The notes beneath the pieces were generated by a model. The model saw only the letters and a program-made list of their open reading frames with translations. It was not told the origin of the DNA and ran no database searches. From contig JBDRQF010000004.1 in NCBI GenBank assembly GCA_043826435.1, forward strand, positions 1 to 39,793: a stretch of 39,793 bases of DNA, written 5' to 3'. This stretch comes from Elusimicrobiota bacterium. GTDB taxonomy: Bacteria; Elusimicrobiota; Endomicrobiia; CG1-02-37-114; JAHJSO01. Below are positions 13,728 to 35,841 of this stretch, one piece after another. The translations under genes and the position numbers were made by a program. Each line of letters starts with the position of its first letter. The stretch's first letter is position 1.

Positions 13728-13743
13728 TGTGAGTAAAATCACA
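13728..13743. promoter_or_regulatory. CRP-type binding site
   Basis: Perfect TGTGA-GTAAAA-TCACA, intergenic, directly abutting TTGAAA-17nt-TAAAAT (13744-13772). Confidence 0.75.
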
Positions 13744-13762
13744 TTGAAATAAATCTGAAAAA

Positions 13763-14848
13763 ATGCTAAAATACTTTTCATTAACCATAGTTGCGCTGGT
13801 GGTTGCGGCCGGGGCATATTTTTACGTTACGGGGACGACTAAAATAGAAATTGGCATTAACGTGGACTCAACCGAATACATGGCGAAAGACGAACTCCGT
13901 TTTGAAGCCACAATAAAGAATATCGGGAAACAGCCGGGCTATTTTTTTATTGACGTAAAATCGGACATGGGGAAATTCACACCGCACCTTTTATACCTTG
14001 CCGGAAACACGGAACAGCCTGTGAGTTATACGCATGCAATACCTCCGCAGATTACACCCGGGAAGTATGCCGTTGACATAACGGTAAAAACCAGGGCAGC
14101 CATACCGTTCATGAAAACACAAAAGGTTAAGACCTCAGCCGCTAAAACTTTCTTTGTTGAAATAAAACAACCGCCGCCACCCGTTGTCCGGATACCTAAA
14201 CCCAAACCCCCGGAACCACTGATGATGGGTAATATTAAATTCGTGTCCCTGCCTCAACAAATGATATACCACTCGCTGTACAATGTCCGATTATTAACGG
14301 AAAACATTTCCTCAAGGCGTGGGGATTTCCTCGTCTGGCTCATTATTACCGGCCCCGAGAACACCTTAAAGGTATATTCGCAGACGGTCACAATGGCTGC
14401 GCTGGAATCCCGGGAGATTGAATTTGTTACGGGCGCGAAGCCATCAGACCCGCCGGGTGAATATTTCGCAAGCGCGGAAATGAGGGAACTCCCTGCCGAC
14501 CGTCTCCTATCGTCCGATGCAGCCGTAACGACACTGACAGACATGCCTCCGAATATTGAGTTTAAGAAGATGGACGTCTCCAAGACCCGCGACATAACGA
14601 TACTGTGTGACATAACGGACGACGTCAGGGTTGAAACGGCGAAACTCTTTTATGAAGACCCCCTGAGGAATTGGACGACAACATACAACATGGACATCGT
14701 CTCCGGCACAAGGACCTCAGGGGCATGGTCGTGTTCGTTCAGGCCTTACAAAAAGGCAAAAAATTTTAGTTTCTACTTAAAGGCAACGGATTCAAAAAAT
14801 AATACCTATCAAACAAACAAAAATTCCGTCTCGGTGGTGAAAAAATGA
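13763..14848 (+). CDS. Hypothetical membrane-anchored exported protein with probable Ig-like domains and a Pro-rich linker
   Basis: N-terminal hydrophobic helix, beta-rich segments and PPPPVVRIPKPKPPEP. ATGA overlap with the cyclase gene. Confidence 0.7.
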   Translation: MLKYFSLTIVALVVAAGAYFYVTGTTKIEIGINVDSTEYMAKDELRFEATIKNIGKQPGYFFIDVKSDMGKFTPHLLYLAGNTEQPVSYTHAIPPQITPGKYAVDITVKTRAAIPFMKTQKVKTSAAKTFFVEIKQPPPPVVRIPKPKPPEPLMMGNIKFVSLPQQMIYHSLYNVRLLTENISSRRGDFLVWLIITGPENTLKVYSQTVTMAALESREIEFVTGAKPSDPPGEYFASAEMRELPADRLLSSDAAVTTLTDMPPNIEFKKMDVSKTRDITILCDITDDVRVETAKLFYEDPLRNWTTTYNMDIVSGTRTSGAWSCSFRPYKKAKNFSFYLKATDSKNNTYQTNKNSVSVVKK

Positions 14849-16626
14849 AAAGGCGTCAACTAATCGGTATCCTGATTTCAGTCATTGCAACACTGCTGGT
14901 TTTAATCCTCACAGTTTTCGGCGTTTTCAGGACGTGGGAACACAAGTTCTACGATTACAAGTTTATTCTGAGGGGCAAGATTGAACCCTCACGGAATATT
15001 GTGATTGTTGGGATTGATGAGGACTCCCTTTCAAGGTTCGGGAGATGGCCCTGGCCCAGGAGCATACTCGCGGTGGCTATAAGGAACCTGAAAAAGGCAG
15101 GGGCGACGGTTGTCGGTACCGATATAATCTTCCCTGAACACAGTCAGGACCGCAACCATGACGTTGCATTCGCCAGCGCCCTCCGGTTTTCAAAATCTGT
15201 GGTCGGGGCGACCTTCTTTGAGATGGCTCCCGAAAAGGTGATTGACGTTGTTGACGGCCAGATACAGATACATGAGGTCTATGAAAGGAAACTCGTCCTG
15301 CCGGTTAAACTATTCCAGAATACGTACGCCCGGTTGGGCTTCACGAACGCCTATCCCGACGACGACGGTGTTCTCAGGGGGGCGCAGATGATTGACGAAT
15401 ACCATGACGAAAGGTATTATTCTTTCAATGCGGAGATATCGGCACTTTTTACCAGGAAGAATCCTGAAGAACTCGGCATCCCGGCGTACATACTTGCAAA
15501 CTTCCGCGGAGGGGGAAAGTCATACACCAGGTATTCATTCTCTCTGATATACGACGCCGCTTTCCCGAAAACATGGGTAAAAGACAAAATCGTCCTGCTG
15601 GGCTCCGTTGCAACAGGCGCTTTTGACCATTACCCGACACCTTTTGACAAGATGTACCCCGGGGTTGAGTTCCATGCCACGCTCATAGACAACATCCTCG
15701 TTAAGGACTACATCAGACCGCTCCCAGACACAGTAACCCTCCTGCTGGTTCTACTCTTCGGCGTCGGCATCGGGTACATCGGCATAAAAACGAAAACACA
15801 GCATGGGATTCTTTCGTTTTCAGCAGTCCTTATTGTATATTTCATAATAACCATGTTCCTGTTTTCAAAGTATAACGTCCACATGGACTTCTTCTCACCG
15901 ACGCTGTCCCTCGTTATTTCATACATCTCCCTTATGGGTTACAGATTCAGAGGCGAGGAGAAAGAAAAAAGGTGGATAAAGAAAACCTTTTCCTACTACC
16001 TGAGCCCTTCGGTAATCAATGAACTTACCGAAAGCCCCGAAAAACTCAAACTCGGCGGTGAAAGGAAAAACCTTACCGTTTTGTTCTCGGACATCCGGGG
16101 GTTCACCACCATGTCCGAAAAACTCAAACCTGAGGAAATCGTCGGTTTACTGAACGAATATCTCAGTTCCATGACGGAGGTTGTCTTTAACTATTACGGC
16201 ACACTTGACAAGTTTATCGGCGACGCGATAATGGCTTTCTGGGGAGCGCCCGTGCCGCAGGAAAATCATGCGCAACTCGCCGTTGAGTGCGCCCTTGAAA
16301 TGACTCTAAAACTGAAAGCGCTCCAGGAAAAATGGGCAAGCCAAGGCAAGTCAATAATAAACATCGGCATAGGGATAAACACGGGCGATATGATTGTAGG
16401 GAACATGGGCTCCAACCAGCGGATGGACTATACTGTAATAGGTGATAACGTAAACCTTGCATCCCGGCTTGAGACCCTCACCAGGCAGTACAATACCAAT
16501 ATAATAATATCCGAATCAACCCGGCAGTCGGTAAAGGATAAAATTGAAACGAAACTTCTCGGCGACGTCAAGGTAAAAGGGAAGGAAAAACCTGTAACCA
16601 TTTACGAGGCGGTATCCAAAAAATGA
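14845..16626 (+). CDS. CHASE2-domain class III adenylate cyclase
   Basis: CHASE2 (IVIVGIDEDSL..FGRWPWPR, D.DGVLR, PGVEFHA), 3 TMs, and cyclase motifs FSDIRGFT, DKFIGDAIMAFWG and YTVIGDNVNLASRLE. The Lys/Thr pair indicates ATP specificity. Confidence 0.95.
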   Translation: MKRRQLIGILISVIATLLVLILTVFGVFRTWEHKFYDYKFILRGKIEPSRNIVIVGIDEDSLSRFGRWPWPRSILAVAIRNLKKAGATVVGTDIIFPEHSQDRNHDVAFASALRFSKSVVGATFFEMAPEKVIDVVDGQIQIHEVYERKLVLPVKLFQNTYARLGFTNAYPDDDGVLRGAQMIDEYHDERYYSFNAEISALFTRKNPEELGIPAYILANFRGGGKSYTRYSFSLIYDAAFPKTWVKDKIVLLGSVATGAFDHYPTPFDKMYPGVEFHATLIDNILVKDYIRPLPDTVTLLLVLLFGVGIGYIGIKTKTQHGILSFSAVLIVYFIITMFLFSKYNVHMDFFSPTLSLVISYISLMGYRFRGEEKEKRWIKKTFSYYLSPSVINELTESPEKLKLGGERKNLTVLFSDIRGFTTMSEKLKPEEIVGLLNEYLSSMTEVVFNYYGTLDKFIGDAIMAFWGAPVPQENHAQLAVECALEMTLKLKALQEKWASQGKSIINIGIGINTGDMIVGNMGSNQRMDYTVIGDNVNLASRLETLTRQYNTNIIISESTRQSVKDKIETKLLGDVKVKGKEKPVTIYEAVSKK

Positions 16627-17309
16627 TTGTATTCTGGCGCCTGCTGCTTGCACACCTCCTGACTGATTTTACTTTCCAGACAAACGGCATTGCCCGCTGG
16701 AAAAGGGAATCCCCCGTGGGTGTTATCGTTCATTCCGGCATTTTTCTGATCCTTTCGTTCGTACTCTGCCGGCAATGGCTGGGACAGACATGGTGGAAGG
16801 TCCCCGGATGGGCTGCAATCGTTATACTGTTTATAATACACTCTATGGAAGACCACTACCGCATCTGGAGCATCGGCAAGGGCGGCTCCAACGACAACAT
16901 CCTTTTCTTTTTGTGGGACCAGTCCATACACGTTATACTCCTCTTCCTGTTTTCACAGGTAAACAACGGGAATATTATTGAAGAAAAGGTTATCGTAGCG
17001 ATATGCCTGCTCATCGGCGTGACGCATTTTACATCCATACTGATATATTACCTTGAAGAAGCGATATACGGGCACGAACACGTCCTTTTGCGCCTCAAGG
17101 GAAAATATTATTTAATAGTTGAAAGGGCTGCGATCTTCGGATGTTTCCTGCTGCCCGGTCGGTGGTGGCTGGTTTTTGCGGCCGTATTGATACTGAAACC
17201 GCTTATTTCCAGAGTATTCACCCTTAATGATTTTACCCGCACAAACCTGATTATCAGCCCTGTATCCGCCGTCGCTTTCGGACTACTCGCACGATTTATA
17301 CTCCATTGA
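16623..17309 (+). CDS. DUF3307 family membrane protein
   Basis: LLAHLLTDFTFQ, VHSG, IHSMEDH and WDQSIH; multi-TM. ATGA overlap with the cyclase gene. Confidence 0.8.
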   Translation: MIVFWRLLLAHLLTDFTFQTNGIARWKRESPVGVIVHSGIFLILSFVLCRQWLGQTWWKVPGWAAIVILFIIHSMEDHYRIWSIGKGGSNDNILFFLWDQSIHVILLFLFSQVNNGNIIEEKVIVAICLLIGVTHFTSILIYYLEEAIYGHEHVLLRLKGKYYLIVERAAIFGCFLLPGRWWLVFAAVLILKPLISRVFTLNDFTRTNLIISPVSAVAFGLLARFILH

Positions 17310-18451
17310 AAAAAACATTTCTGAAGTCCTGGCCATTTTTTTTATTCGTCGCATTCCTTTTCGCCGGTTTAATAATACCGGGAAAAGACGCAACGGTCGT
17401 ATCACTTAACGACCCCGGCATTGCCGGCTATTTTAAACTCACGGTCCCGGCAGAGTTCTATGCCGTTGAACCATTCGTCGGCCTGCCTGATTATCTTTTG
17501 TCATTCCAGCACATTAAATCTGTGGCGGCCTCTATCCTGCTGTTATTCTTAATATTCTTTATGTTTTTCATACGGTCCAAAAAACTTCATACACGGATAA
17601 TAGCAGTCGCCTTTTATTCCCTGCTGTCGTTTGTAATCGTAGTCGCCTACACGGTATTATTCCCTGTCCCCAAACATAAACTCATCAAAAATAACAACGA
17701 CTACCTTCTCGTTGATTTCCATTCGCATTCAACATATTCGCACGATGGCATCGCAACGGTCAGGCAGGGCGTGAAGTGGCACACCCGTCATAACTTTGAT
17801 GCATTCTATCTCACCGACCACAGCGTTAACCGCTATGCCGAAATACCGCGGGACATGAAACGGTTGAAGTCAAAGATACTCCCCGGCGAAGAGGTGCAGG
17901 ACAGGGAAGGCAACCACCTGTTAATCATCGGGCTGGACAGGTCAATATCGGATTTCCTGACTGAAGACCCGGCCTCACTTGAAACAAAAAGGTTAACGGA
18001 AACAGCCCACAAGAACGGCGGCGCGGTTATAGTAGCCCACTGGTGGCATGAAAAGGGCAGCGGGTTAAACGACCTTTACGCCGCGGGGGTTGACGGCTTT
18101 GAGATTTACGGCCGTGAAAAAACGCCGCTGACAGCCAAAACGCAAAAGGCCCTGCTGGATTTCTGCAGAGAAAAAAATATCATCGCCACAGGCGGGAGCA
18201 ACTGGCACGGGTGGGGTGCGAGGAATGACGTCTGGACTGCAATAAAACTGCCCGGCTGGCAGGAACTGGACACACCTCAACTCAATAAAAAAATCGTGGA
18301 CGCCATAAGGAACAAGCGGGCAGGCCTGTTTGACGTGCTGGTAATATCAAGGCATCCGGTTTATCCGTTAGGGTTGAATTTTTATCAGGTTGCTTCCTGG
18401 ATAGTTTTACTTTTTATTGCCAGGGGAATCTTATCCTGGAGGGGGGTTTGA
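17306..18451 (+). CDS. Membrane-anchored PHP-domain phosphoesterase
   Basis: DFHSHSTYSHDG, LTDH, PGEE, VAH, DGFE and GGSNWHG, preceded by N-terminal TMs. TTGA overlap. Confidence 0.85.
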   Translation: MKKTFLKSWPFFLFVAFLFAGLIIPGKDATVVSLNDPGIAGYFKLTVPAEFYAVEPFVGLPDYLLSFQHIKSVAASILLLFLIFFMFFIRSKKLHTRIIAVAFYSLLSFVIVVAYTVLFPVPKHKLIKNNNDYLLVDFHSHSTYSHDGIATVRQGVKWHTRHNFDAFYLTDHSVNRYAEIPRDMKRLKSKILPGEEVQDREGNHLLIIGLDRSISDFLTEDPASLETKRLTETAHKNGGAVIVAHWWHEKGSGLNDLYAAGVDGFEIYGREKTPLTAKTQKALLDFCREKNIIATGGSNWHGWGARNDVWTAIKLPGWQELDTPQLNKKIVDAIRNKRAGLFDVLVISRHPVYPLGLNFYQVASWIVLLFIARGILSWRGV

Positions 18452-19007
18452 ATTTGTGGTTCTGCTTAACGGTGGCGTCGCACTCCAATATGTACGGATG
18501 TAATTCCATCGCTTTATCCAGAGTTTCCGGATTGAACAAATTAATGTTATACTGACACAAAGCAGTAACGGAGTTCTTTGGAGAATAAACGTTTATTTTC
18601 TTCTCATATGCAAGAAGTTTGGACAACAATTCCTTTCTCTTTGATGCCCAGCTCAACTCGCCCGTCACCCTAATACCGTTGTACCCTTCTTTCAACGCCC
18701 GTTTTGCGGTCATTAACAATAATTTGATTGTATGGTCGGGATCAAAATAGCCCCTTGAAAAATAAAAATCATTGGCGGTCATTATATCAAAACATCCTCT
18801 TGCACTGTGTCTCACAACGTCAATCCCGTGCGAGTGCAACAACCTGCGCATGTGGTAAGGGGTGGTCTCATCAACCACATAAATACATTTCTCGTTCTTA
18901 TCAAGCCCGTCCTGAAAGAATTTTGAAACACACATCAACTGCTGGTCTCTGTTCTGGTACTCAAAGAATATGTGACCGCCCTCCGGAAATTTATTTGGGT
19001 TCTGCAT
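18414..19007 (-). CDS. Stand-alone MEDS (DcmR-like sensory) domain protein
   Basis: FFQDGLDKNEKCIYV, GYFDPD, GYNGIRVTGELSWA, LLAYE..IN, ALCQY and HPYIL. Confidence 0.85.
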   Translation of the reverse strand: MQNPNKFPEGGHIFFEYQNRDQQLMCVSKFFQDGLDKNEKCIYVVDETTPYHMRRLLHSHGIDVVRHSARGCFDIMTANDFYFSRGYFDPDHTIKLLLMTAKRALKEGYNGIRVTGELSWASKRKELLSKLLAYEKKINVYSPKNSVTALCQYNINLFNPETLDKAMELHPYILECDATVKQNHKFKPPSRIRFPWQ

Positions 19008-19071: not shown

Positions 19072-19154
19072 GGGAATTTTGGGAAATTATTCCGCCCGGC
19101 CATGGCCGCCCGTGATTTTCCGTCAATACCCCGAGTTTTCACAGGGGGTGTGAC

Positions 19155-19243
19155 TTTTGGCACACAGTTTCTATTATCTGATTTCCCGCTTGTCAACGGT
19201 GTTTTTGGCACACAGTTTCTATTATCTGATTTCCCGCTTGTCA
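19155..19243. repeat. Tandem duplication with a 48-bp period (41 bp identical)
   Basis: TTTTGGCACACAGTTTCTATTATCTGATTTCCCGCTTGTCA at 19155-19195 and 19203-19243. Confidence 0.95.
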
Positions 19244-19401: not shown

Positions 19402-21609
19402 TTGTCTACGAGATTGCTGATTATTTCTAACAGGTTGCCGTTCTCTTTAAAAATCAAGGATAAAAAAATTGAGTTCAAGGAAAGCGCCGGAGGACTGGTT
19501 ACGGGCATCAGTTCATATCTTGAATCAATGAAAAGTTCTTCTTTTACCACAATGGAACATATCTGGATAGGGTGGCCGGGCGTCGCTGTTGACCAGAAAC
19601 TTGAAGATAAAATAGAGAAAAAACTATCTTCAGACCTGAATGCATACCCCGTCTTTCTGGCGGAAGAGTGTATGGAAAATTTCTATCATGGATTTTGCAA
19701 TGACACTATCTGGCCTCTTTTTCATTGTTTCCCGACATATGTTTCTTATAATGAGGAATACTGGGCTAGCTATAAACAGGTGAACAATAGTTTTTTTGAG
19801 ACCGTCAAAAAACTGCTGAAACCAGGTGATATCGTATGGATTCACGATTACCACCTTATGCTGTTGCCTAAACTTATTCGGGAATACATGCCCGATGTCC
19901 TTATAGGATTTTTTCTTCATATACCTTTCCCGCCATATGAAATATACCGTCTTTTACCCAAGGAATGGGGGGCGCAAATCCTTGAGGGGCTTTTAGGGTG
20001 CGACCTGATTGGCTTCCATACTAATGATTATACACAGGACTACCTGCGGTGTGTATTGAGAATTCTCGGATATGAACATGACATCGGTAATATCATGGTA
20101 AACGACAGGGTTGTGCGGGTTGATACATTTCCGATGGGAATACATTTTGACAAATATCTTAAAACAGCGGAGAGCGTTGAAGTCCATGACATCAGCCGGG
20201 AACTTAAAGGGTCGCTTGGTGAGACAAAGGTTATTGTCTCTGTTGACCGCCTTGACTATACAAAAGGCATAAAAAATCGGCTTGAAGGATACGAATTATT
20301 TCTTGAAAAAAACACAGAGTGGCATAAAAAGGTAATACTTCTTTTGGTTGTGGTCCCGTCGAGAATCGGGGTAAAAAGTTATCAGCGTATGAAGCACACG
20401 ATTGATGAACTTGTAGGCAGAATTAATGGTAAATTCGGGGATGTTGCCTGGACGCCTATCCGTTATCAGTACAAATACCTGCCGATTGATCAACTGACTG
20501 CAATATATACGACGGGGGATATAGCCCTGGTTACGCCCCTGCGAGACGGGATGAATCTCGTTGCGAAAGAATATCTGGCATCCCGGTGGGATAAAACGGG
20601 GGTGTTGATATTGAGCGAGATGGCGGGGGCGGCAAAGGAATTAGGCGAGGCGATTATTATAAACCCCAATCACAAAAAAGAGATAGCGGATGCACTCTGC
20701 ACTGCACTGGAGATGCCTCCTGAGGAACAGATAGCGAGAAACACGATAATGCAGGAGCGATTGAAGAATTATAATGTAATCAGGTGGGCGGACGATTTTA
20801 TCCAGACGCTGCAGACAATGAGCAAGCACAGGAGAGAACGGGAGGCAAAATTATTGACGGTTGATGCAAGGGTGCAACTTATAAATAAATTCAGAGAAGC
20901 GACATCAAAACTTATTTTTCTTGATTATGACGGCACACTGGTGCCGTTTTATAAATCCCCGGAGGAGGCGAAACCGGACAGTGAACTCATTAATCTGCTG
21001 GGTTCTTTTTCGGAAAGCCCTAACACAAAGATTGTCCTTATATCGGGGAGGAGGCGAGATTTTCTTCAAAAGTGGTTTGGCATTCTCAACATTGAAATGG
21101 TTGCAGAACATGGTATATGGATTAAGGAACACGACGGGGACTGGAAGTTATTAAAGCAACTTAATGTTGAATGGAAAGACAAACTCCTGCCGTATTTCAA
21201 GCGGTATGTTGACAGAGTGCCGGGTTCATTTATTGAAGAGAAGGAATATTCAATAGCATGGCATTACAGGAAAGCAGACACTGAATTATCTTCTATCAGG
21301 ACAAAAGAATTTGTTGATGAATTAATTACTATTACATCAAACACAGACCTGAAAATAGTTCAGGGGAATAAAGTGGTTGAGGTCAGAAATTACGGGGTTG
21401 ATAAGGGGTCGGCGGCATCTTATTTTATCTCAAACAACAAATATGATTTTATCCTTGCAATAGGAGATGACGAAACGGACGAAGACCTGTTTAAGGCGCT
21501 CCCGCAGGACGCTGTTTCAATAAAAGTGGGCATCTCCGCTTCGTATGCAAAGTTTAATCTTAAAAATCACCTGGATGTCCGCGGGCTTATAAAAGAGATG
21601 ATAAAATAG
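19402..21609 (+). CDS. otsAB: Bifunctional trehalose-6-phosphate synthase/phosphatase
   Basis: SNRLP, SAGGLVT, WIHDYHL, FFLHIPFP, VDRLDYTKG, RDGMNLVAKEY and HAD motifs DYDGT and GDDETDED. TTG start with AGGAGG RBS. Confidence 0.96.
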   Translation: MSTRLLIISNRLPFSLKIKDKKIEFKESAGGLVTGISSYLESMKSSSFTTMEHIWIGWPGVAVDQKLEDKIEKKLSSDLNAYPVFLAEECMENFYHGFCNDTIWPLFHCFPTYVSYNEEYWASYKQVNNSFFETVKKLLKPGDIVWIHDYHLMLLPKLIREYMPDVLIGFFLHIPFPPYEIYRLLPKEWGAQILEGLLGCDLIGFHTNDYTQDYLRCVLRILGYEHDIGNIMVNDRVVRVDTFPMGIHFDKYLKTAESVEVHDISRELKGSLGETKVIVSVDRLDYTKGIKNRLEGYELFLEKNTEWHKKVILLLVVVPSRIGVKSYQRMKHTIDELVGRINGKFGDVAWTPIRYQYKYLPIDQLTAIYTTGDIALVTPLRDGMNLVAKEYLASRWDKTGVLILSEMAGAAKELGEAIIINPNHKKEIADALCTALEMPPEEQIARNTIMQERLKNYNVIRWADDFIQTLQTMSKHRREREAKLLTVDARVQLINKFREATSKLIFLDYDGTLVPFYKSPEEAKPDSELINLLGSFSESPNTKIVLISGRRRDFLQKWFGILNIEMVAEHGIWIKEHDGDWKLLKQLNVEWKDKLLPYFKRYVDRVPGSFIEEKEYSIAWHYRKADTELSSIRTKEFVDELITITSNTDLKIVQGNKVVEVRNYGVDKGSAASYFISNNKYDFILAIGDDETDEDLFKALPQDAVSIKVGISASYAKFNLKNHLDVRGLIKEMIK

Positions 21610-21649
21610 CCACGGATATAATCGGGATGTCGTATCGGGGACAATTCTT

Positions 21650-21766
21650 ATGAAAACCATCGGTTGGATTCTTATGGCGGTTGCCTGGGGGACTATCCTT
21701 TTTTTATTCGTATTTTGTTACGGCAAAATTTTCAGATGTAAATCCACAGAGGACAAAAAACCCTGA
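21650..21766 (+). CDS. 38-aa single-TM small protein
   Basis: Hand translation MKTIGWILMAVAWGTILFLFVFCYGKIFRCKSTEDKKP*, with a GGGGA RBS. Too short to appear in the ORF track. Confidence 0.6.
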   Translation: MKTIGWILMAVAWGTILFLFVFCYGKIFRCKSTEDKKP

Positions 21767-21799
21767 GCGAGGGCAAAGGCGAGGGGGCATAAAGATACC

Positions 21800-27948: not shown

Positions 27949-28093
27949 TAGTGTCCCATAAATCTCTTGGCATTTTAATATTCATTGAATCGTCATTGCG
28001 AGTGACCGAAAGGAGCGTGGCAATCCCGAGATTGCTTCGTCGCTAACGCTTCTCGCAATGACAACCAAATGTAAAGAACTGTTAGGGACAGCA
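27949..28093. mobile_element. MITE-like element with degenerate TIRs, carrying a full REP/RPE palindrome
   Basis: TAGTGTCCCATAAATCTCTTGGCATTT versus AAATGTAAAGAACTGTTAGGGACAGCA, about 18/27 complementary. Confidence 0.5.
27991..28062. repeat. REP/RPE-like (CGTC-tagged) palindrome, copy 3, complete
   Basis: C-GTCATTGCGAG...GCAATC-CC-GAGATTGC...CTCGCAATGAC, with a perfect 11-bp outer stem. Confidence 0.9.
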
Positions 28094-31718: not shown

Positions 31719-31734
31719 TGTGATTTTAATCACA
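31719..31734. promoter_or_regulatory. CRP-type binding site
   Basis: G-TGTGA-TTTTAA-TCACA-C, a perfect intergenic match 5 bp upstream of a -35 hexamer. Confidence 0.75.
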
Positions 31735-31739: not shown

Positions 31740-31769
31740 TTGACAAACGTAATAACATTTATGTATAAT
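31740..31769 (+). promoter_or_regulatory. Consensus sigma70 promoter of the envelope operon
   Basis: TTGACA-18nt-TATAAT. Confidence 0.75.
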
Positions 31770-31828: not shown

Positions 31829-32281
31829 ATGGGAAGGAATTTATGGTTGGCTGTTTTTGTTGGTTTTGTTTTTCTTGTTTCAGCATGCGGCGGAAGATCA
31901 GGCAAGGTCATTCAAAAGGGTGAGATTTCCAGAGAGATTGACCAGAAAATGGTTGAAGGGGATTACGTCCAGTCCATGGGGATCGGGGCTGCCGACCAAT
32001 CAATTGACAACAAGACGCAGCGGATGGCGACTTCCAGGAATGCAGCTATCGTGATGGCGCAGTACGAAATGCTTTCCTTCATCAAGGGATTGAAACTTGA
32101 AGGCGGAATCACCGTGGAAAAGGCAATAGAGACCGACTCTGTCATAGCCACAAAGATTGACGCTGAAATCAAGGGCTCCGAGATTACAAAGACAAGTTGG
32201 ACCAATGACGACGGCTGTATCGTGAACATGCGTCTCCCCAAAAAGCGCCTTAAAGCAATGGGACTGAAACTCGTTGAGTAA
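31829..32281 (+). CDS. LPP20/FlgP-like lipoprotein
   Basis: Lipobox LVSAC; GIGA...RMATSRNAAIVMAQYEMLSFIKGLKLEGGITV...IDAEIKG pattern; GAGGAGG RBS. Confidence 0.75.
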   Translation: MGRNLWLAVFVGFVFLVSACGGRSGKVIQKGEISREIDQKMVEGDYVQSMGIGAADQSIDNKTQRMATSRNAAIVMAQYEMLSFIKGLKLEGGITVEKAIETDSVIATKIDAEIKGSEITKTSWTNDDGCIVNMRLPKKRLKAMGLKLVE

Positions 32282-32458
32282 TTTTGGATATTCGCGGCAT
32301 CCTGCATAGCCGGTGGACTGCATAAGCAAAAAACCTGCATATCACGTGCAATGATTGTACCGCTCGTAGCACTTGTACCACCCCGGTGTGTATGTCTGTA
32401 TAAGATAGGTTTTTCAGCGTGAACCGGTAGTGAACCGGTATAAAAGAGGACATTTGAG

Positions 32459-33772
32459 ATGAAGATAAAAGTAACTTTGCCCCTTCTGGTTGTATCAGTT
32501 TTAACCGTGGCCGCATTGTGCCCGGCCGGCATTTTAGCCAGGCAGGACCCTTATGACGTCCTGGTAAAAGAACTCGCCGATACTACGGTATTTACCAAAC
32601 AACCCAAGGTCGCCATAATGCCGTTTAACTACCTGGACAAAAGGAAGTCCGACGGCGGGATTATCATATCAGAACGGCTTACGACCAGGGTGGTCAAACT
32701 CAAAAAATTCCAGGTTATTGAAAGGCAACTCCTTGAAAAGGTTATACAGGAACTGCACCTTGAATCCACGGGGGTAATTGACGTTGAAACCACAAAACAA
32801 CTGGGGAAAGTGCTCGGCGTTGAGGCAATTATTACAGGCACGCTTATGGACATCCAGGACAACAAGGTTGAAATAAACGCCCGCCTGATAAAAACCGACA
32901 CAGCCGAGGTTTTGACAACTTCCGCCGTAGAAGTTGAAAAGGTCTGGCGGGATGCTTTCGTGCCTGTACAGGGACAGCCGCAGGCGCCTTACCAGCCGTC
33001 GCGCGAACAGGAACAGTACAGGCAACAGTATAGGCCGGTGACAGCCCCTCCGCCTTCCCGTGCTTATACACCCGCCTTTGACGGTTTCTTTGACATATTC
33101 TTCGGTCAAAGCAGCGGCAGGATGTCTCTTGTATTCAAAAACAACACATATCAAATAGATGAAGTTGATCTGTCGCTTGACTTCAACGGCTCAGGAACAT
33201 TACAAAGCGATGTTTACTACAAAAAAATAGCCTTCCCGGAAATGGAGACAGAAAGCAGTATGCCTTTCGGAATCCGTTTTGGCATGTTTGGAAAAAACCT
33301 TGGTTTTGACTTTGAAATGTCCTATGTCTCATGGTACCTGAAGAAACAGAAAACCACTGTTACATATAACGATTTGTATAAATACAATTTCAGCTTTTTT
33401 AATGATAACTACATAAAAGCGAGTATGTTTAACATGTCATTGGATCTGCTGTTAAGGTTCAGCGACAAAACAATACAACCGTATGTAGGACTCGGGGTCG
33501 GAATCGCCTTCAATAATGTGCGGTCAGATTATATATACTACTATTATAACAAGGTGTACAAGAAAGGGCTGAACGAGACAGCCCTTGGGTTTGTATTCAA
33601 AATGCCTGTGGGCATACGGCTCCAGATTGACAAAACATCGTCAATCTTTTTTGAATACCGTTCATGCTCCAATACTTTCACCTTTGACAGAGGCATTAAA
33701 TACGAGGTAGATACCATAAACATGAATATGTCGCAGTACCTGATGGGCCTCGGAGTACATTTTGGGGCATAA
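32459..33772 (+). CDS. FlgO/CsgG-like alpha-beta domain fused to a C-terminal outer-membrane beta-barrel
   Basis: Signal peptide; KVAIMPF, FQVIERQLLEKVIQE, LGKVLGVEAIITGT and INARLIKTDTAEV; Q/P linker; barrel-like PYVGLGVG and YLMGLGVHF. Confidence 0.75.
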   Translation: MKIKVTLPLLVVSVLTVAALCPAGILARQDPYDVLVKELADTTVFTKQPKVAIMPFNYLDKRKSDGGIIISERLTTRVVKLKKFQVIERQLLEKVIQELHLESTGVIDVETTKQLGKVLGVEAIITGTLMDIQDNKVEINARLIKTDTAEVLTTSAVEVEKVWRDAFVPVQGQPQAPYQPSREQEQYRQQYRPVTAPPPSRAYTPAFDGFFDIFFGQSSGRMSLVFKNNTYQIDEVDLSLDFNGSGTLQSDVYYKKIAFPEMETESSMPFGIRFGMFGKNLGFDFEMSYVSWYLKKQKTTVTYNDLYKYNFSFFNDNYIKASMFNMSLDLLLRFSDKTIQPYVGLGVGIAFNNVRSDYIYYYYNKVYKKGLNETALGFVFKMPVGIRLQIDKTSSIFFEYRSCSNTFTFDRGIKYEVDTINMNMSQYLMGLGVHFGA

Positions 33773-33802
33773 TGCCGTGGGGTCATCCGGTTATAGAACA
33801 AA

Positions 33803-34927
33803 ATGAAAAAGTTCGTCGCATTGTGTTTGCTTTCCGCATCACTTATCGGATGCTCCTCAACGGGCAGCGTCAAAAAATCCACCATAAGCCCGGAGTATGT
33901 AGTTGAGATTGTGGAAGCGGAAGGGCTCGCACCTCTTTCCTCCGATCTTGTCCAGTGCAGGAACATAGCGATTGCCGATGCCCAGAAAAGGGCGCTTGAA
34001 CTTGTCGTCGGAGTTTATGTTTCAGCGGAGAATTTCGTATCTAAGGCGCAGCTCATAGAAGACAACATAACCGGGGAAACAGAGGGCTACATTGAAAGAT
34101 ACGACATCCTCAAGGAGTGGAAGGACGAACCGAACTTCTACAGGGTAAAAATAAAAGCAGCGGTAAGGAAGGAAGACCTTGTGAAAAAACTTGAATCCCT
34201 TATACCGCAGGAACAAAAGACGCCGAGGGTAGCGTTCTGGGTAAGGGAAAAGGTTGACGGCCAGCCGTCAACCGCACAGATAGCGGAAAAGGAACTTTCA
34301 GCGATATTCCTTGCCGCAAAATTTACAATCTCCGACAAAAAGCCCGCGGAGTATTTCAGTTCAACCGAAGGGTTGCTTGAAACGAACCAGGAAGAACTGG
34401 AAAACAAACTCCAGAGCGACCTTGTCGTAATGGGGGAAGCATCCAGTAGTTTTAACACTGACCAGGGGCTTGGCGGGTTCGTATCTTACCGTTCGTTTGT
34501 GTCACTCAAGGTGTTCAAAACATCAACGAAGGACATAATCGCCACAATCCAGGACGCAGCCGCGGGGCTTGACTTAAACAGGGAAAATGCAGGGAAAGTC
34601 GCCATATCAAACGTTATAAAAAAGGCGGGGAAGGGCCTGCCTGACAATATCCTCCAGTACATAAAAGACCACCCATACTCCGTAATACAGGTAAAAGGTG
34701 CGGAAAACCTGAACGAGGTCAACTCCCTGACAAGGAGAATCAGGGCGCTCCCATCCGTGAGGGACTGCTGGGTAAAGTCATTTTCGGGCAACCTTGCAAT
34801 GATTGAATTCACCATGAAAAGGGGTAGCGTAAACGAGGTGGCGAGGCAGATAGAACTCGTGAAAATGCCCTACAAGGTGGTAAACGTTGACGCATACAGC
34901 ATATCGCTGGAAAAGGCAAAAGAATGA
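33803..34927 (+). CDS. Lipoprotein with an FlgT N-terminal-like domain
   Basis: Lipobox LIGC; VEAEG.A...RNIAIADAQKRALELVVGVYV...EGYIERYDILKE...YRVKIKA.V. Confidence 0.72.
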   Translation: MKKFVALCLLSASLIGCSSTGSVKKSTISPEYVVEIVEAEGLAPLSSDLVQCRNIAIADAQKRALELVVGVYVSAENFVSKAQLIEDNITGETEGYIERYDILKEWKDEPNFYRVKIKAAVRKEDLVKKLESLIPQEQKTPRVAFWVREKVDGQPSTAQIAEKELSAIFLAAKFTISDKKPAEYFSSTEGLLETNQEELENKLQSDLVVMGEASSSFNTDQGLGGFVSYRSFVSLKVFKTSTKDIIATIQDAAAGLDLNRENAGKVAISNVIKKAGKGLPDNILQYIKDHPYSVIQVKGAENLNEVNSLTRRIRALPSVRDCWVKSFSGNLAMIEFTMKRGSVNEVARQIELVKMPYKVVNVDAYSISLEKAKE

Positions 34928-35841
34928 ATCCAAACAAGGCAATGAAATTTTCCGGGCTGCTCAAATTATTTTGTATCGTTCTTTCAATAGTATCCGGGAC
35001 GATTTTCATTAAACCCGTTTCGGGTGAAAAAGCATCGCCGTACCCGTCGGCCAAGAAATATTATACCGCCTGTATATATAAATCCTCGGGCAGGGTTGAA
35101 GTGTATGATACAACCTCAAAAACGTGGATGGCTGCCACCAAATACATGCCTATTGAGCAGGGTAACAGGGTAAAGACGTTCAAGGGCGCCTCCTGCGACG
35201 TGGTAATGAACGACGGCTCAACGCTCCGCATCAGCGAAAATACGGATGTTGACTTCTCCGTCCTGTCTTATAAAAACAAAAAACAAAAATATAAAATCAA
35301 CATCACAGCAGGCAAAATACTCGGCCTCCTTGGGAAAATCCAGACAAGCGGCTCATACATAAAACTTAAAACGCCCACCGCCGTGATGGCTGTCCGGGGA
35401 ACTGATTTTTCAATCGTGGTATCTTCAGAAAAAACGAACGTCGGACTTTTTGAAGGCGCACTGGCCGTGAAACCCGCAGACGAAGACGAAACAGAAAGCG
35501 AAACCGGGGAAGACGCGCAGGAACCGGTACCACAAATGGATGTATCAACGCAGCCGGCCCCGGTAAAACAGGAAGAAATACCCGGTAACGAGGTACTGCT
35601 TGAACCCGGTAAGGAAGTGGTGGTAGAACGCGGCCATCCTCCCCTAGTTGAGGAACGGCTTTCAAGGTTTATGGAAAAAGAAAAGGAAAGATGGCTGGCT
35701 GTCCGGGAATACGTTGAAGGAATCCGCAAGCGGCTCCAGGAAAGGGAGTCATACCTGCAGGAACGCATCCAGAGTCAGAAATCCTCCCTTGAAAAGTGGG
35801 AACAACGGAGACAGGAAAAACTCAGGAAAGAAAAACCCTGA
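34924..35841 (+). CDS. FecR-domain exported protein with an acidic linker and C-terminal coiled coil
   Basis: DGSTLRISENT, TPTAVMAVRGTDF and GLFEG.L; ATGA overlap with the upstream gene. Confidence 0.85.
   Translation: MNPNKAMKFSGLLKLFCIVLSIVSGTIFIKPVSGEKASPYPSAKKYYTACIYKSSGRVEVYDTTSKTWMAATKYMPIEQGNRVKTFKGASCDVVMNDGSTLRISENTDVDFSVLSYKNKKQKYKINITAGKILGLLGKIQTSGSYIKLKTPTAVMAVRGTDFSIVVSSEKTNVGLFEGALAVKPADEDETESETGEDAQEPVPQMDVSTQPAPVKQEEIPGNEVLLEPGKEVVVERGHPPLVEERLSRFMEKEKERWLAVREYVEGIRKRLQERESYLQERIQSQKSSLEKWEQRRQEKLRKEKP

What the first reader, a model, noticed from the sequence alone, without database searches (positions are those of the whole stretch)
13728..35841. Candidate cAMP-CRP envelope-sensing circuit linking two operons 18 kb apart
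Seen: the only two perfect TGTGA-N6-TCACA sites I found by eye (13728 and 31719) are both intergenic and next to -35 elements. About 0.04 would be expected per window at uniform base composition (39793/4^10). One precedes the cyclase operon and the other the lipoprotein-barrel-FecR operon, and crp is in the same window. Known: Sinorhizobium meliloti uses CHASE2 cyclases (CyaD1/D2/K), the CRP-like Clr and the outer-membrane receptor NsrA. Inference: an analogous trans-envelope relay built from different parts, running from an outer-membrane complex through FecR and the CHASE2 cyclase to CRP.
Basis: partly seen in the sequence, partly recalled or inferred. Interest (0 to 1): 0.85.

Follow-up and report, generated by a model that had tools for sequence, protein, structure and literature searches.

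The report
cAMP-CRP regulon of envelope genes
The two perfect CRP boxes are most likely real operators of this groundwater bacterium's single cAMP receptor protein, part of a small regulon covering its own cyclase operon and several cell-envelope operons, but they do not form a private two-operon relay.

Summary
Observation confirmed. TGTGA-N6-TCACA occurs exactly twice in the window (13728, 31719; about 0.01 expected) and 10 times in the 1.83 Mb genome (about 2 expected). Eight of the 10 lie between genes, and seven sit 0-5 nt upstream of a near-consensus -35/-10 promoter. The genome has one Crp-type HTH protein (window 11629-12315), with a cAMP-pocket motif and an R-E-x-x-x-K recognition helix. 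The cyclase is an intact ATP-type class III enzyme.

Box-driven genes are the CHASE2 cyclase operon, 3 of 5 FecR-domain genes, two CsgG/LpoB-like outer-membrane proteins, a pilin operon and an Fe-S oxidoreductase. Several of these targets keep boxes in related genomes.

The site-2 operon is a conserved four-gene lipoprotein/FecR module (LPP20/FlgP-like, FlgT-like lead, CsgG/FlgO-like, FecR). It is distributed largely independently of CHASE2: 3 of 10 module genomes lack CHASE2, and 15 of 22 CHASE2 genomes lack the module. Its box is seen only in this genome.

FecR next to CHASE2 cyclases is general (36 of 80 loci across phyla) and already published. Here that slot is held by a class-restricted membrane protein with three Ig-like domains. 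Binding, cAMP dependence and transcription starts are untested. This is a new member of a known kind.

The parts
11629..12315 (+). crp: the only Crp/Fnr-type regulator of the genome (cNMP-binding domain + HTH_Crp_2), cAMP-type
   Evidence: Pfam cNMP_binding 1.2e-20 and HTH_Crp_2 1e-13. Only 1 HTH_Crp_2 match and 0 PF00325 matches in G000. Best solved relatives are T. thermophilus CRP 4ev0 (2.8e-31), M. tuberculosis CRP (3e-24) and E. coli CAP (1e-16). FGE..RSAS and R-E-M-V-T-K align to RETVSR/RETVNK.
13728..13743 (.). Crp box 1, TGTGAGTAAAATCACA
   Evidence: The same box-plus-promoter layout stands upstream of the orthologous cyclase operon in G003 and G004.
13744..13772 (+). Promoter-like element TTGAAA-N17-TAAAAT directly abutting box 1 (0-nt gap), with TG one base before the -10. 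The predicted start near 13779 lies downstream of ATG 13763 (unresolved).
13763..14848 (+). unk361: membrane-anchored protein with three Ig/FnIII/MG-like beta-sandwich domains and no Pfam or NCBIfam family. Its stop overlaps the cyclase start (ATGA).
   Evidence: No family hit. Model pLDDT 85.5, TM helix 2-24 plus 3 all-beta domains. Generic Ig-like fold matches. Lies next to the CHASE2 cyclase in f1-f4 and next to FecR in f5 and f9. 0 of 80 loci in other phyla.
14845..16626 (+). CHASE2-sensor class III adenylate cyclase
   Evidence: CHASE2 6.4e-57 and Guanylate_cyc 1.1e-30. Cyclase domain matches P. aeruginosa CyaB 3r5g at 4e-46. Motifs FSDIRGFT, KFIGDA, DYTVIG and NVNLASR are present.
16623..17309 (+). 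DUF3307 membrane protein, overlapping the cyclase stop
   Evidence: Follows the cyclase in G003 (54% id) and in L127 (7e-51); DUF3307 ORFs also lie near the cyclase, on the other strand, in L147 and L169.
17306..18451 (+). PHP-domain metallohydrolase with hydrophobic N- and C-termini; last gene of the cyclase operon
   Evidence: PHP 2.5e-6. CehA/McbA-type domain 4.9e-11, below cutoff. Termini.
31719..31734 (.). Crp box 2, TGTGATTTTAATCACA
31740..31769 (+). Consensus promoter TTGACA-N18-TATAAT, 5 nt downstream of box 2
   Evidence: (12 of 12 matches).
31829..32281 (+). lipo150: LPP20/FlgP-family-like lipoprotein (lipobox VSAC)
   Evidence: Lipobox. Weak LPP20 hit, 0.045. Profile matches solved chain 9hmf_C at 3.8e-6 and FlgP chains at 0.03-0.5. 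Orthologs are 53-64% identical over the aligned parts in 9 other genomes.
32459..33772 (+). barrel437: signal peptide, LpoB/CsgG/FlgO-like N-domain, linker, C-terminal small outer-membrane beta-barrel
   Evidence: CsgG 1.2e-9 and FlgO 6.8e-7, both above cutoff. Model pLDDT 73.6. Foldseek matches OprG/OmpW/OmpT-type barrels and the LpoB C-domain at TM 0.75.
33803..34927 (+). unk374: lipoprotein (lipobox LIGC), LipL46-like with a FlgT_N-like lead
   Evidence: Lipobox. NCBIfam LipL46 1.1e-10, far below cutoff. Atlas score 0.95-0.96 to clusters with FlgT_N on 13-29% of members. 39-40% id orthologs in the module of G039, G052, G063 and G070.
34924..35841 (+). FecR305: secreted or anchored FecR-domain protein (LipL45/Lsa33-like) without an anti-sigma domain. 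Its start overlaps the unk374 stop (ATGA).
   Evidence: FecR 4.6e-15. LipL45/Lsa33 1e-16, below cutoffs. N-terminus.
19149..19164 (.). One-mismatch box TGTGACTTTTGGCACA between the MEDS gene (-) and the trehalose-P synthase/phosphatase gene (+). It is not in the box-plus-(-35) layout, so membership in the regulon is uncertain.

Best explanation
Both palindromes are operator sites of the genome's single cAMP receptor protein (Crp, 11629-12315). They belong to a small regulon of about eight promoters that carry perfect TGTGA-N6-TCACA boxes. In seven of them the box sits 0-5 bp upstream of a strong -35/-10 promoter, which is an activator-type layout with predicted box centres near -43.5 to -49.5.

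Proposed working (inferred): an unknown envelope signal acts on the periplasmic CHASE2 domain of the adenylate cyclase, probably together with unk361, the membrane-anchored three-Ig-domain protein whose gene overlaps the cyclase start. The cyclase makes cAMP. cAMP-Crp then switches on the cyclase operon itself (positive feedback) and a set of surface and envelope operons: three FecR-domain operons including the site-2 lipoprotein/barrel/FecR module, a second CsgG/LpoB-like barrel protein, and a type IV pilin with its prepilin peptidase. At one Fe-S oxidoreductase operon the box lies downstream of the promoter, a repressor-like position.

The two window operons are therefore co-regulated members of one envelope regulon, not a dedicated sensor-to-cyclase pair.

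Shown: the motif enrichment, the promoter layout, the single Crp with cAMP-type residues, the intact ATP-type cyclase, and conservation of several targets in relatives. Inferred: binding, the sign of regulation, cAMP dependence, and any protein contacts.
For: Motif enrichment:
- 2 sites in the window against 0.01 expected.
- 10 in the genome against 0 for the reversed control, 1.99 expected from base composition, and 0-3 in 5 Markov simulations.
- 8 of 10 lie between genes; 7 have TTGAC-like -35 and -10 hexamers 0-5 nt downstream.
- Under strict criteria there are 6 perfect-box promoters, against 0 perfect-box hits in 3 simulated genomes.

The regulator and the cyclase:
- One HTH_Crp_2 protein and no PF00325 protein in G000.
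- Its closest solved relatives are true cAMP-CRPs, and it keeps FGE..RSAS and R-E-x-x-x-K.
- The cyclase has the Lys/Thr ATP-type centre and both metal Asp motifs.

Targets: FecR 520 aa, FecR 561 aa, the FecR305 operon, a CsgG/LpoB-like barrel, a pilin plus A24 peptidase, and the cyclase operon.

Conservation in relatives:
- Cyclase operon box with an identical 0-nt-gap layout in G003 and G004.
- Long-FecR boxes in G006, G012, G009 and G018.
- Pilin boxes in G011 and G012.
- Oxidoreductase boxes in G011 and G018.

Other:
- Box counts exceed the reversed control in families that have a full-length Crp ortholog and are 0-1 in the nine f6 genomes, where only cNMP-domain matches were found.
- Natural variants about 0-1% diverged show no listed change in 13641-13776 (weak evidence).
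- Precedent: S. meliloti Clr-cAMP activates a FecR-domain gene and the cyclase gene cyaF2 (PMC5498481, passages).
Against: - There are no binding, expression or 5'-end data, and no RNA run holds the locus.
- The predicted start of the site-1 promoter (about 13779) lies downstream of ATG 13763. That ATG opens the TM helix conserved in all 11 family members, so either the promoter call or the transcript model is incomplete.
- Box centres differ by 5 bp (half a helical turn) between promoters and match neither canonical E. coli position (-41.5 and -61.5, recalled).
- One-mismatch boxes are not enriched (28 against 36-53 in simulations), which is unusual for a transcription-factor regulon.
- The site-1 box is missing in G001 and G002, where hisS abuts unk361.
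- The site-2 box is missing at the module in all 4 other genomes examined.
- G003 keeps the box, but no full-length Crp was found there (98% complete).
- 0 perfect boxes in 850 kb around 80 CHASE2 cyclases of other phyla, so control of the cyclase operon is a lineage-specific feature.
Confidence: 0.75

Rival explanations
1. One reading: the site-2 products (lipoproteins, barrel, FecR305) form an outer-membrane sensor that passes its signal through FecR to the CHASE2 cyclase, which feeds Crp. The two operons would then be one dedicated trans-envelope relay.
For: - Both operons share the box.
- FecR genes neighbour CHASE2 cyclases in 36 of 80 loci across phyla and CHASE2 kinases in Burkholderiales (PMC5192318, passages).
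- A CHASE2 cyclase / FecR / PDE / TPR cluster is described in Campylobacterota (PMC9239204, passages).
- G000's second CHASE2 protein (C31) has a FecR gene two genes upstream.
- FecR and CHASE2 are both missing from 53 of 53 f6 genomes and mostly co-present elsewhere.
- crp, a FecR gene and the cyclase, or two of the three, lie within about 3-35 kb on one contig in G039, G056, G063, G062, G078, G057 and G006.
Against: - The site-2 module is found without CHASE2 in G031, G052 and G068 (two of these also lack any FecR hit). It was not found in 15 of 22 CHASE2 genomes, including G001-G004.
- The FecR genes that sit near cyclases in relatives are the long (about 500-aa) paralogs, not FecR305 orthologs.
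- The gene overlapping the cyclase start is unk361, not a FecR gene.
- Box 2 is seen only in G000.
- Two other FecR operons carry boxes as well.
- No contact was tested.
Confidence: 0.15
2. The boxes are Crp sites, but the logic differs. Crp might repress rather than activate at some or all of them, or its ligand might not be cAMP from this cyclase. The genome has several other cNMP-domain and GAF-domain proteins.
For: - At C34:13227 the box lies just downstream of a promoter.
- At site 1 the box-promoter unit overlaps the unk361 start codon.
- Box positions are non-canonical.
- Five further places in G000 (four loci) match only the cNMP-binding part of Crp, and three GAF proteins lie in the window.
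Against: - Seven boxes sit just upstream of, and do not overlap, the -35 hexamer, which is the usual place for an activator.
- The Crp pocket motif matches cAMP-binding CRPs.
- The cyclase specificity residues are ATP-type.
Confidence: 0.08
3. The palindromes are not regulatory. They would be chance matches or part of dispersed repeats such as the REP-like element that ends 8 nt before box 1.
For: A 34-nt repeat with 45 genomic copies abuts site 1. About 2 of the 10 genomic boxes are expected by chance, and 2 are indeed intragenic.
Against: - Fivefold enrichment with 0 in the reversed control.
- Fixed placement next to promoters, against 0 perfect-box hits in simulations.
- Conservation upstream of orthologous genes in several families.
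- The box is outside the repeat unit, and the second repeat copy in the window (28030-28063) has no box beside it.
Confidence: 0.02

Closest known systems
Sinorhizobium meliloti CyaD1/CyaD2/CyaK - Clr - NsrA pathway (PMC5498481 and PMC13001267, passages read)
   Same: CHASE2-sensor class III cyclases feed a CRP-family regulator. The regulator's targets include a FecR-domain periplasmic protein (smc02177) and a cyclase gene (cyaF2). An outer-membrane beta-barrel takes part in signal perception.
   Different: - The box is TGTGA-N6-TCACA here, against TGTT-N8-AACA for Clr.
- There is one cyclase of this type and one Crp here, against many cyclases in S. meliloti.
- The cyclase has its own partner gene (unk361) with no counterpart named in the passages I read.
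- No NsrA comparison was made because no NsrA sequence was available to the tools.
- The organism is an uncultivated groundwater bacterium with a 1.8 Mb genome.
Campylobacterota gene cluster of CHASE2 adenylate cyclase + cAMP phosphodiesterase + FecR-domain outer-membrane protein + TPR protein (PMC9239204, passages read)
   Same: A CHASE2 cyclase is genomically tied to a FecR-domain envelope protein. A hydrolase gene lies in the cyclase operon (here a PHP-domain protein, function untested).
   Different: Here no FecR gene lies at the cyclase locus (the nearest is 18 kb away), no TPR gene was seen, and unk361 holds the adjacent slot. The link is made through shared Crp boxes, not adjacency.
LysM-FecR + CHASE2 histidine kinase operon of Burkholderiales and P. 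aeruginosa (PMC5192318, passages read)
   Same: A FecR-domain secreted protein is encoded next to a CHASE2 sensor. G000's second CHASE2 locus (C31: FecR280 ... cNMP-binding protein, CHASE2 Ser/Thr kinase, PP2C) is of this general kind.
   Different: The output domain is a cyclase (window) or a Ser/Thr kinase (C31), not a histidine kinase. No LysM domain was detected.
Classical cAMP-CRP regulons (E. coli CAP, M. tuberculosis Rv3676, T. thermophilus CRP; solved structures matched)
   Same: Same protein family, same palindrome, pocket motif and recognition-helix pattern.
   Different: - The regulon is tiny and consists almost entirely of perfect boxes.
- The box abuts the -35 and does not overlap it.
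- The cyclase operon looks activated, whereas E. coli cyaA is repressed by cAMP-CRP (recalled).
- The targets are envelope proteins, not catabolic genes.
FlgO / FlgP / FlgT outer-membrane lipoprotein set of Vibrio and Campylobacter flagellar motors (roles recalled; family hits)
   Same: lipo150 resembles LPP20/FlgP-family lipoproteins. barrel437 passes the Pfam FlgO and CsgG cutoffs. unk374's nearest Atlas clusters carry FlgT_N on a minority of members.
   Different: No flagellin or rod-protein family match in G000 (96.7% complete). The set is joined to a FecR-domain gene. The FlgP and FlgT resemblances are weak leads, not family membership.

Membership tests
cAMP receptor protein (CRP) branch of the Crp/Fnr family | N-terminal cyclic-nucleotide-binding domain plus C-terminal Crp-type helix-turn-helix | tested here: met
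   cNMP_binding 1.2e-20 and HTH_Crp_2 1e-13, both above cutoffs. The NCBIfam CRP equivalog scored 96.5 bits against a cutoff of 266, so it is not an E. coli-type equivalog.
cAMP receptor protein (CRP) branch of the Crp/Fnr family | cAMP-pocket residues (Gly-Glu ... Arg-Ser/Thr-Ala; E. coli numbering recalled) | tested here: met
   FGELAL...RSASA aligns with FGEMSL...RSASA of T. thermophilus CRP and FGELSI...RTSSA of M. tuberculosis CRP.
cAMP receptor protein (CRP) branch of the Crp/Fnr family | Recognition helix Arg-Glu-x-x-x-Arg/Lys that reads TGTGA | tested here: met
   R-E-M-V-T-K aligns to RETVSR (4ev0) and RETVNK (3d0s). The roles of these residues are recalled.
cAMP receptor protein (CRP) branch of the Crp/Fnr family | cAMP-dependent binding to TGTGA-N6-TCACA | not testable with these tools
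   Only indirect support: fivefold enrichment of the box, its promoter-linked placement, and a single candidate regulator.
Class II CRP-dependent promoter (E. coli definition, recalled) | Box centred at -41.5 and overlapping the -35 region | tested here: inconclusive
   Boxes abut the predicted -35 or lie 3-5 nt upstream of it. Centres computed from the hexamers are about -43.5 (0-nt gap), -45.5 (3-nt gap) and -48.5 to -49.5 (5-nt gap). No transcription start is known.
Class III adenylate cyclase | Two metal-binding Asp, substrate-specifying Lys plus Asp/Thr, transition-state Asn and Arg (roles recalled) | tested here: met
   FSDIRGFT, KFIGDA, DYTVIG and NVNLASR are present. Lys stands where the Cya2 chain 2w01 has Glu, and Thr as in CyaB 3r5g.
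FecR anti-sigma factor of FecI/FecR/FecA systems | Cytoplasmic N-terminal anti-sigma domain before the membrane segment | tested here: not met
   Only about 10 residues precede the hydrophobic segment of FecR305. The NCBIfam FecR equivalog scored 17 bits against a cutoff of 385.
FecR anti-sigma factor of FecI/FecR/FecA systems | Adjacent ECF sigma factor and TonB-dependent receptor genes | tested here: not met
   Neither family appears among the 38 window ORFs scanned. The neighbours are lipoproteins and groES.
FecR domain (PF04773) proteins, LipL45-like | Pfam FecR domain above the gathering score in a secreted protein | tested here: met
   56.3 bits against a cutoff of 24. Signal or anchor segment present.
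S. meliloti-type CHASE2 cyclase / Clr / FecR pathway | CHASE2 cyclase + CRP-family regulator + regulator-controlled FecR-domain gene | tested here: met
   All three parts are present, with boxes before 3 of the 5 FecR-domain genes. Regulation itself is inferred.
S. meliloti-type CHASE2 cyclase / Clr / FecR pathway | NsrA-type outer-membrane beta-barrel needed for signal perception | not tested
   No NsrA sequence was available. barrel437 has an OmpW/OprG/OmpT-like barrel, but homology to NsrA was not examined.
Campylobacterota CHASE2 cyclase cluster | FecR-domain gene, cAMP phosphodiesterase and TPR gene adjacent to the cyclase | tested here: not met
   The cyclase operon holds unk361, DUF3307 and a PHP hydrolase. 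There is no FecR or TPR gene at the locus.
LPP20/FlgP lipoprotein family | Pfam LPP20 above the gathering score | tested here: not met
   lipo150 scored 14.6 bits against a cutoff of 25.9. A nine-sequence profile reaches a solved lipoprotein chain at 3.8e-6 and FlgP chains only at 0.03-0.5. This is a resemblance, not membership.

The most novel reading that the evidence does not exclude
unk361, a family without annotation and restricted to this bacterial class, is the missing adaptor of a self-amplifying envelope sensor. It would bridge FecR-domain outer-envelope proteins and the CHASE2 domain; it neighbours the cyclase in four families and a FecR gene in two others. cAMP-Crp would raise expression of the cyclase operon and of the FecR/lipoprotein modules, giving a switch-like commitment to a surface-remodelling state (pili plus FlgO/P/T-like lipoprotein complexes in a non-flagellate cell). 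If so, this small regulon would give a tractable handle on what CHASE2 domains sense, which the 2016 paper I read (PMC5192318, passages) calls unknown.
Probability: 0.2. Interest if true: 0.6.

Novelty: new member of a known kind. Interest (0 to 1): 0.35.

Why it matters
CHASE2 is a widespread sensor domain. A 2016 paper I read (PMC5192318, passages) says the environmental factors it recognises are not known, and the best-studied case (S. meliloti) needs an outer-membrane partner.

This genome offers a compact version: one Crp, one CHASE2 cyclase of this type, and about eight perfect operators. The whole circuit could be rebuilt with a handful of synthetic fragments.

It also shows that the gene slot next to CHASE2 cyclases, held by FecR in many phyla, can be taken by an unrelated Ig-like membrane protein. 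That narrows what kind of partner the sensor needs.

For annotation, it gives a regulon-based functional context to several families that now carry no name: unk361, the roughly 400-aa partners of the long FecR proteins, and the FecR / LPP20-like / FlgT-like / CsgG-like module.

Tried and rejected
No binding test of any pair was made.
- RNA evidence: no RNA holder was listed for the locus, so transcription starts and expression are unknown. The read-laying run used DNA contigs only, and its list of differences was cut, so site 2 could not be judged.
- The search for related loci with the unk361 alignment failed because no stretch was conserved enough. The cyclase protein was used instead.
- unk361 and unk374 are not paralogs (BLASTP E 0.32).
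- One- and two-mismatch boxes with promoter layout (C45, C51, C53, C61) lead to unrelated genes or lie inside an antisense ORF, and occur at the rate seen in simulations. I dropped them from the regulon.
- The REP-like repeat beside box 1 does not fold better than shuffles (z = +0.52), so I rejected the idea that it insulates the operon from hisS read-through.
- Rfam: no family in the window at gathering score, including the 177-nt gap inside the site-2 operon.
- Earlier scan notes: none fitted.
- Taxonomy was not established. The closest named cyclase + DUF3307 locus is in an Elusimicrobia MAG, which is only a lead.
- Three full-text searches keyed to CHASE2, FecR, LipL45, adenylate cyclase, cAMP and 'outer membrane' turned up no paper on this lineage or on the unk361 family. 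Searches this narrow do not show that none exists. Supplements of the cited papers were not opened.

Full report
**1. The observation**

The pattern TGTGA-N6-TCACA occurs exactly twice in the window, at 13728-13743 and 31719-31734. The mean in 100 dinucleotide-preserving shuffles was 0.01, and none of the 100 reached two.

Site 1 lies in the 60-nt gap between hisS (12380-13702) and an unannotated ORF (13763-14848). That ORF's stop overlaps the start of a CHASE2 + class III cyclase gene (14845-16626), which is followed by a DUF3307 gene and a PHP-hydrolase gene.

Site 2 lies after a LolD-like ABC ATPase gene (stop 31709) and before four genes:
- a 150-aa lipoprotein (31829-32281);
- a 437-aa CsgG/FlgO-like protein (32459-33772);
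- a 374-aa lipoprotein (33803-34927);
- a 305-aa FecR-domain protein (34924-35841).

A Crp-family gene lies at 11629-12315. Both boxes adjoin promoter-like hexamers. Site 1 has TTGAAA-N17-TAAAAT starting at the base after the box. Site 2 has TTGACA-N18-TATAAT (12 of 12 consensus positions) 5 nt after the box.

**2. A regulon, not a pair**

The window is contig C4 of a 1.83 Mb, 61-contig assembly that is 96.7% complete. It holds 10 perfect boxes, against 0 for the reversed control pattern, 1.99 expected from base composition, and 0-3 in five first-order Markov simulations. One-mismatch boxes are not enriched (28 against 36-53).

Two of the 10 lie deep inside ORFs (C3:27358 and C43:3306), about the number expected by chance. 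The other eight lie between genes; one of them, C60:10759, overlaps the last eight codons of the upstream gene.

Seven of the eight have the same build, with the box followed after a short gap by a TTGAC-type -35, a 16-18 nt spacer and a -10:

| Gap after box | Sites |
|---|---|
| 0 nt | C4:13728, C10:62714 |
| 3 nt | C9:13631 |
| 5 nt | C4:31719, C10:21073, C36:46496, C60:10759 |

At the eighth site (C34:13227) the box lies 7 nt downstream of a promoter. With strict hexamer criteria, six perfect-box promoters are found and none in three simulated genomes. C10:21073 fails only on the last base of its -10.

Given eight sites in 1.83 Mb, a pair within 18 kb is not surprising in itself: about 0.55 such pairs are expected (my arithmetic).

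**3. The regulator and the signal**

A search of the whole genome with Pfam HTH_Crp_2 finds one match, the window's gene. Pfam Crp (PF00325) finds none. The other places that resemble this protein (five, in four loci) match only its cyclic-nucleotide-binding part.

Its closest solved relatives are T. thermophilus CRP (2.8e-31), M. tuberculosis CRP (3e-24), C. glutamicum GlxR-type proteins and E. coli CAP (1e-16). In the printed alignments it keeps the pocket motif FGE...RSAS. Its recognition helix R-E-M-V-T-K aligns to RETVSR and RETVNK. The roles of these residues are recalled from work on E. coli CAP.

The cyclase domain is closest to P. aeruginosa CyaB (4e-46). It carries FSDIRGFT, KFIGDA, DYTVIG and NVNLASR, that is, both metal aspartates, Lys plus Thr at the base-specifying positions, and the Asn/Arg pair. 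The Lys stands where the Cya2 chain 2w01 shows Glu (residue roles recalled).

The window therefore encodes a cAMP producer with an extracytoplasmic CHASE2 sensor, together with the only plausible reader of the palindrome.

**4. What the boxes control**

- Site 1: unk361, the CHASE2 cyclase, DUF3307 and the PHP hydrolase.
- Site 2: the lipoprotein/barrel/FecR operon.
- C10:62714: a 520-aa FecR-domain protein followed by a 414-aa unknown.
- C36:46496: a 561-aa FecR-domain protein followed by 274-aa and 401-aa unknowns.
- C60:10759: a 489-aa protein with a weak PorV/UPF0164-like N-terminal part and a CsgG/LpoB-like C-terminal domain.
- C10:21073: a prepilin followed by an A24 prepilin peptidase gene.
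- C9:13631: a 206-aa unknown.
- C34:13227 (repressor-like position): an Fe-S protein and an FAD/NAD oxidoreductase.

Three of the genome's five FecR-domain genes are thus behind boxes. The regulon is dominated by secreted and envelope proteins.

**5. Conservation in relatives**

Among 25 related genomes, box counts exceed the reversed control in several members of families f3, f4 and f5, for example G011 (9 against 1), G012 (6 against 0) and G006 (4 against 0). In the nine f6 genomes scanned there, counts are 0-1. I fetched 40 box regions from 13 relatives and compared downstream ORFs with G000.

- The cyclase operon keeps a box fused without gap to TTGACG-N17-TAGAAT in G004 and to TTGACC-N17-TATAAT in G003.
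- Long-FecR orthologs keep boxes in G006, G012, G009 (two boxes) and G018.
- Genes that follow the 561-aa FecR keep a box in G011.
- Pilin genes keep boxes in G011 (with the peptidase gene) and G012.
- The oxidoreductase pair keeps boxes in G011 and G018.

No relative's perfect box mapped to the site-2 genes. In G001 and G002, hisS abuts the unk361 ortholog with 10-15 nt between them and no box at two mismatches or fewer. In 850 kb around 80 CHASE2 cyclases of other phyla there is no perfect box.

So the regulon is conserved at class level. The two window promoters, however, are younger additions: site 1 is shared with one neighbouring genus, and site 2 is seen only here.

**6. Test of the two-operon link by distribution**

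In an even sample of 81 genomes of the class (53 from family f6):

| Feature | Genomes with it | In f6 |
|---|---|---|
| CHASE2 | 22 of 81 | 0 of 53 |
| FecR | 26 of 81 | 0 of 53 |
| lipo150 (best-conserved site-2 gene) | 10 of 81 | 1 of 53 (G068) |

Four genomes have FecR without CHASE2 (G011, G022, G026, G052); none has the reverse.

The site-2 genes form a conserved module. In G039, G052, G063 and G070 the order is FecR (about 270 aa, 27-31% id), lipo150 (56-62% id), unk374 (39-40% id), then a 213-aa CsgG-like lipoprotein that matches the N-domain of barrel437. There is no box at one mismatch or fewer. In G000 the order is rearranged, and the CsgG-like domain is fused to a barrel. The full-length orthologs of that barrel protein elsewhere stand among unrelated genes.

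The 10 genomes with lipo150 are G000, G031, G039, G052, G056, G062, G063, G068, G070 and G078. Three of them (G031, G052, G068) have no CHASE2 match, and two of those have no FecR match either. Conversely, 15 of the 22 CHASE2 genomes lack lipo150, among them all four same-order relatives.

Two caveats apply: the genomes are related, so these are not independent events, and some are incomplete.

**7. What does travel with the cyclase**

unk361 homologs were found in 12 of 81 genomes, all with a CHASE2 match (11 above Pfam's cutoff; G024 just below).

- They lie directly upstream of the roughly 600-aa cyclase in G001, G002, G004, G008, G014, G018 and G020.
- In G006 and G012 they lie directly after a 340-aa FecR gene.
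- In G039 the order is crp, hisS, unk361, FecR-509, a 413-aa unknown, a 1639-aa surface protein preceded by a one-mismatch box, a PorV-like barrel, and the cyclase, all within 15 kb.
- In G003 only a 33-codon remnant is left.

The family has no Pfam or NCBIfam match. The model (11-sequence alignment, mean pLDDT 85.5) shows an N-terminal membrane helix and three beta-sandwich domains. Fold matches are generic tandem Ig/FnIII/MG domains.

Among 80 CHASE2-cyclase loci from many phyla, 38 have a FecR-like ORF within 5 kb by phmmer, and 36 of these pass Pfam's cutoff. About 21 lie directly upstream on the same strand (coordinates). None of the 80 has an unk361, lipo150 or unk374 relative.

In this class, then, unk361 holds the slot that FecR holds elsewhere, and it also neighbours FecR. 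That is the basis for my adaptor idea (inference).

G000's second CHASE2 protein (C31) is a Ser/Thr kinase. It is preceded by a stand-alone cNMP-binding protein, has FecR280 two genes further upstream, and is followed by a PP2C phosphatase.

**8. Nature of the site-2 module**

- lipo150 and unk374 have lipoboxes. FecR305 has a signal or anchor segment after about 10 residues and a charged C-terminal tail, so it is not a FecR-type anti-sigma factor.
- barrel437 folds (pLDDT 73.6) into an LpoB/TolB-N-like domain, a disordered linker and a small outer-membrane barrel of the OprG/OmpW/OmpT kind.
- A lipo150 profile reaches a solved 'putative lipoprotein' chain (9hmf_C, 3.8e-6) and FlgP chains weakly.
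- unk374's nearest Atlas clusters (0.95-0.96) carry FlgT_N on 13-29% of their members (a lead only).
- The protein next to three cyclases of other phyla carries an LPP20 domain. In L147 it is fused to a FecR domain above cutoff; in L108 FecR is below cutoff; in L111 there is none.
- G000 has no match to the flagellin or rod-protein families.

The module thus resembles a non-flagellar relative of the FlgO/FlgP/FlgT lipoprotein set (roles recalled), joined to a FecR-domain protein.

**9. Open problem at site 1**

The promoter fused to box 1 predicts a start near 13779. ATG 13763 lies upstream of that, and its TG stands one base before the -10, where an extended -10 TG would lie. Yet that ATG opens a membrane helix present at the same alignment column in all 11 family members. 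In G004 the ATG directly follows the -10. In G003 the promoter is kept although unk361 is lost.

One reading (inference) is that read-through from hisS serves unk361, while the Crp-dependent promoter mainly serves the cyclase. No RNA data exist to decide this.

Natural variants about 0-1% diverged bridge site 1. 18 of the 19 differences in one such contig are listed, and none of the listed ones falls in 13641-13776. At that divergence this is weak evidence.

**10. Comparison with what is known, and verdict**

From passages I read:
- S. meliloti uses the CHASE2 cyclases CyaD1/D2/K, the CRP-like regulator Clr and the outer-membrane barrel NsrA (PMC13001267).
- Clr activates a FecR-domain gene, a TPR gene and the cyclase gene cyaF2, and its box is TGTT-N8-AACA (PMC5498481).
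- Burkholderiales and P. aeruginosa pair a LysM-FecR protein with a CHASE2 histidine kinase (PMC5192318).

The window's system is therefore made of the same kinds of parts as known ones.

What is new here:
- the wiring: perfect CRP boxes in front of the cyclase operon and of FecR and lipoprotein operons;
- the class-specific unk361 partner;
- the FecR / LPP20-like / FlgT-like / CsgG-like module.

I rate it a new member of a known kind, of moderate interest.

Noticed in passing
window 13686-13719 and 28030-28063 (larger palindromic element 27983-28071): A 34-nt dispersed repeat with 45 copies in G000 at 3 mismatches or fewer, against 0 for the reversed control. It overlaps the hisS stop codon and ends 8 nt before Crp box 1. 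Metagenome contigs show it with many different flanks. It has no Rfam match, and a single copy has no significant fold. Copies also lie next to other regulon genes (for example C60:9210-9243 and C31:10983-11061).
   Followed up: partly
window 999-4845 (GC 32-37%, against 46% for the genome): A low-GC stretch encodes a DarT-Macro fusion protein (ssDNA ADP-ribosyltransferase plus macro domain in one ORF) followed by a ResIII helicase with a C-terminal restriction-endonuclease domain. It looks like a defence island.
   Followed up: no
window 19149-19164: A one-mismatch Crp box (TGTGACTTTTGGCACA) lies in the divergent gap between a MEDS-domain gene (18414-19007, minus strand) and a trehalose-6-P synthase/phosphatase fusion gene (19402-21609). 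It is more than 70 nt from either predicted -35.
   Followed up: partly
window 10003-11571, 23745-24962, 26836-27897: Three GAF-domain signalling proteins lie in the window: a GAF histidine kinase ending 58 nt before crp, and two GAF + HD_5 (HD-GYP-like) proteins. They could be further cyclic-nucleotide-linked components. No box stands in front of them.
   Followed up: no
G000 contig C31, locus L077:67-9000: The second CHASE2 system of the genome: CarboxypepD_reg protein, FecR280, a 664-aa unknown, a stand-alone cNMP-binding protein, a CHASE2 Ser/Thr kinase (1017 aa) and a PP2C phosphatase. The cNMP protein directly before a CHASE2 protein recurs in G002, G003 and G009 (about 850-aa proteins in G002 and G003, a 593-aa one in G009).
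   Followed up: partly
L026 (G003), minus strand, downstream of its box: In G003 the unk361 gene is reduced to a 33-codon ORF that still starts with a hydrophobic segment, while the Crp box, the promoter and the cyclase are kept. No full-length Crp was found in that genome (98% complete).
   Followed up: partly
L147:1493-2809 (-), L108:3165-5162 (-), L111:3165-5714 (-): Next to CHASE2 cyclases of an Auribacterota MAG and two Verrucomicrobia MAGs, the neighbouring protein carries an LPP20 lipoprotein domain. In L147 it is fused to a FecR domain above cutoff, a fusion that links FecR to LPP20-type lipoproteins.
   Followed up: partly
L028:161-3091 (G004): An RtcB RNA ligase gene interrupted by an intein (Intein_splicing 4.4e-21) lies 68 nt downstream of a perfect box that has no promoter-like hexamers.
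   Followed up: no
window 19402-23657: A cluster of trehalose genes: a synthase/phosphatase fusion, DUF5752 and a TreT-type trehalose synthase.
   Followed up: no
window 35865-35893: groES-groEL has its own perfect TTGACA-N17-TATAAT promoter with TG before the -10, directly after the FecR305 stop. This marks the end of the site-2 operon.
   Followed up: partly
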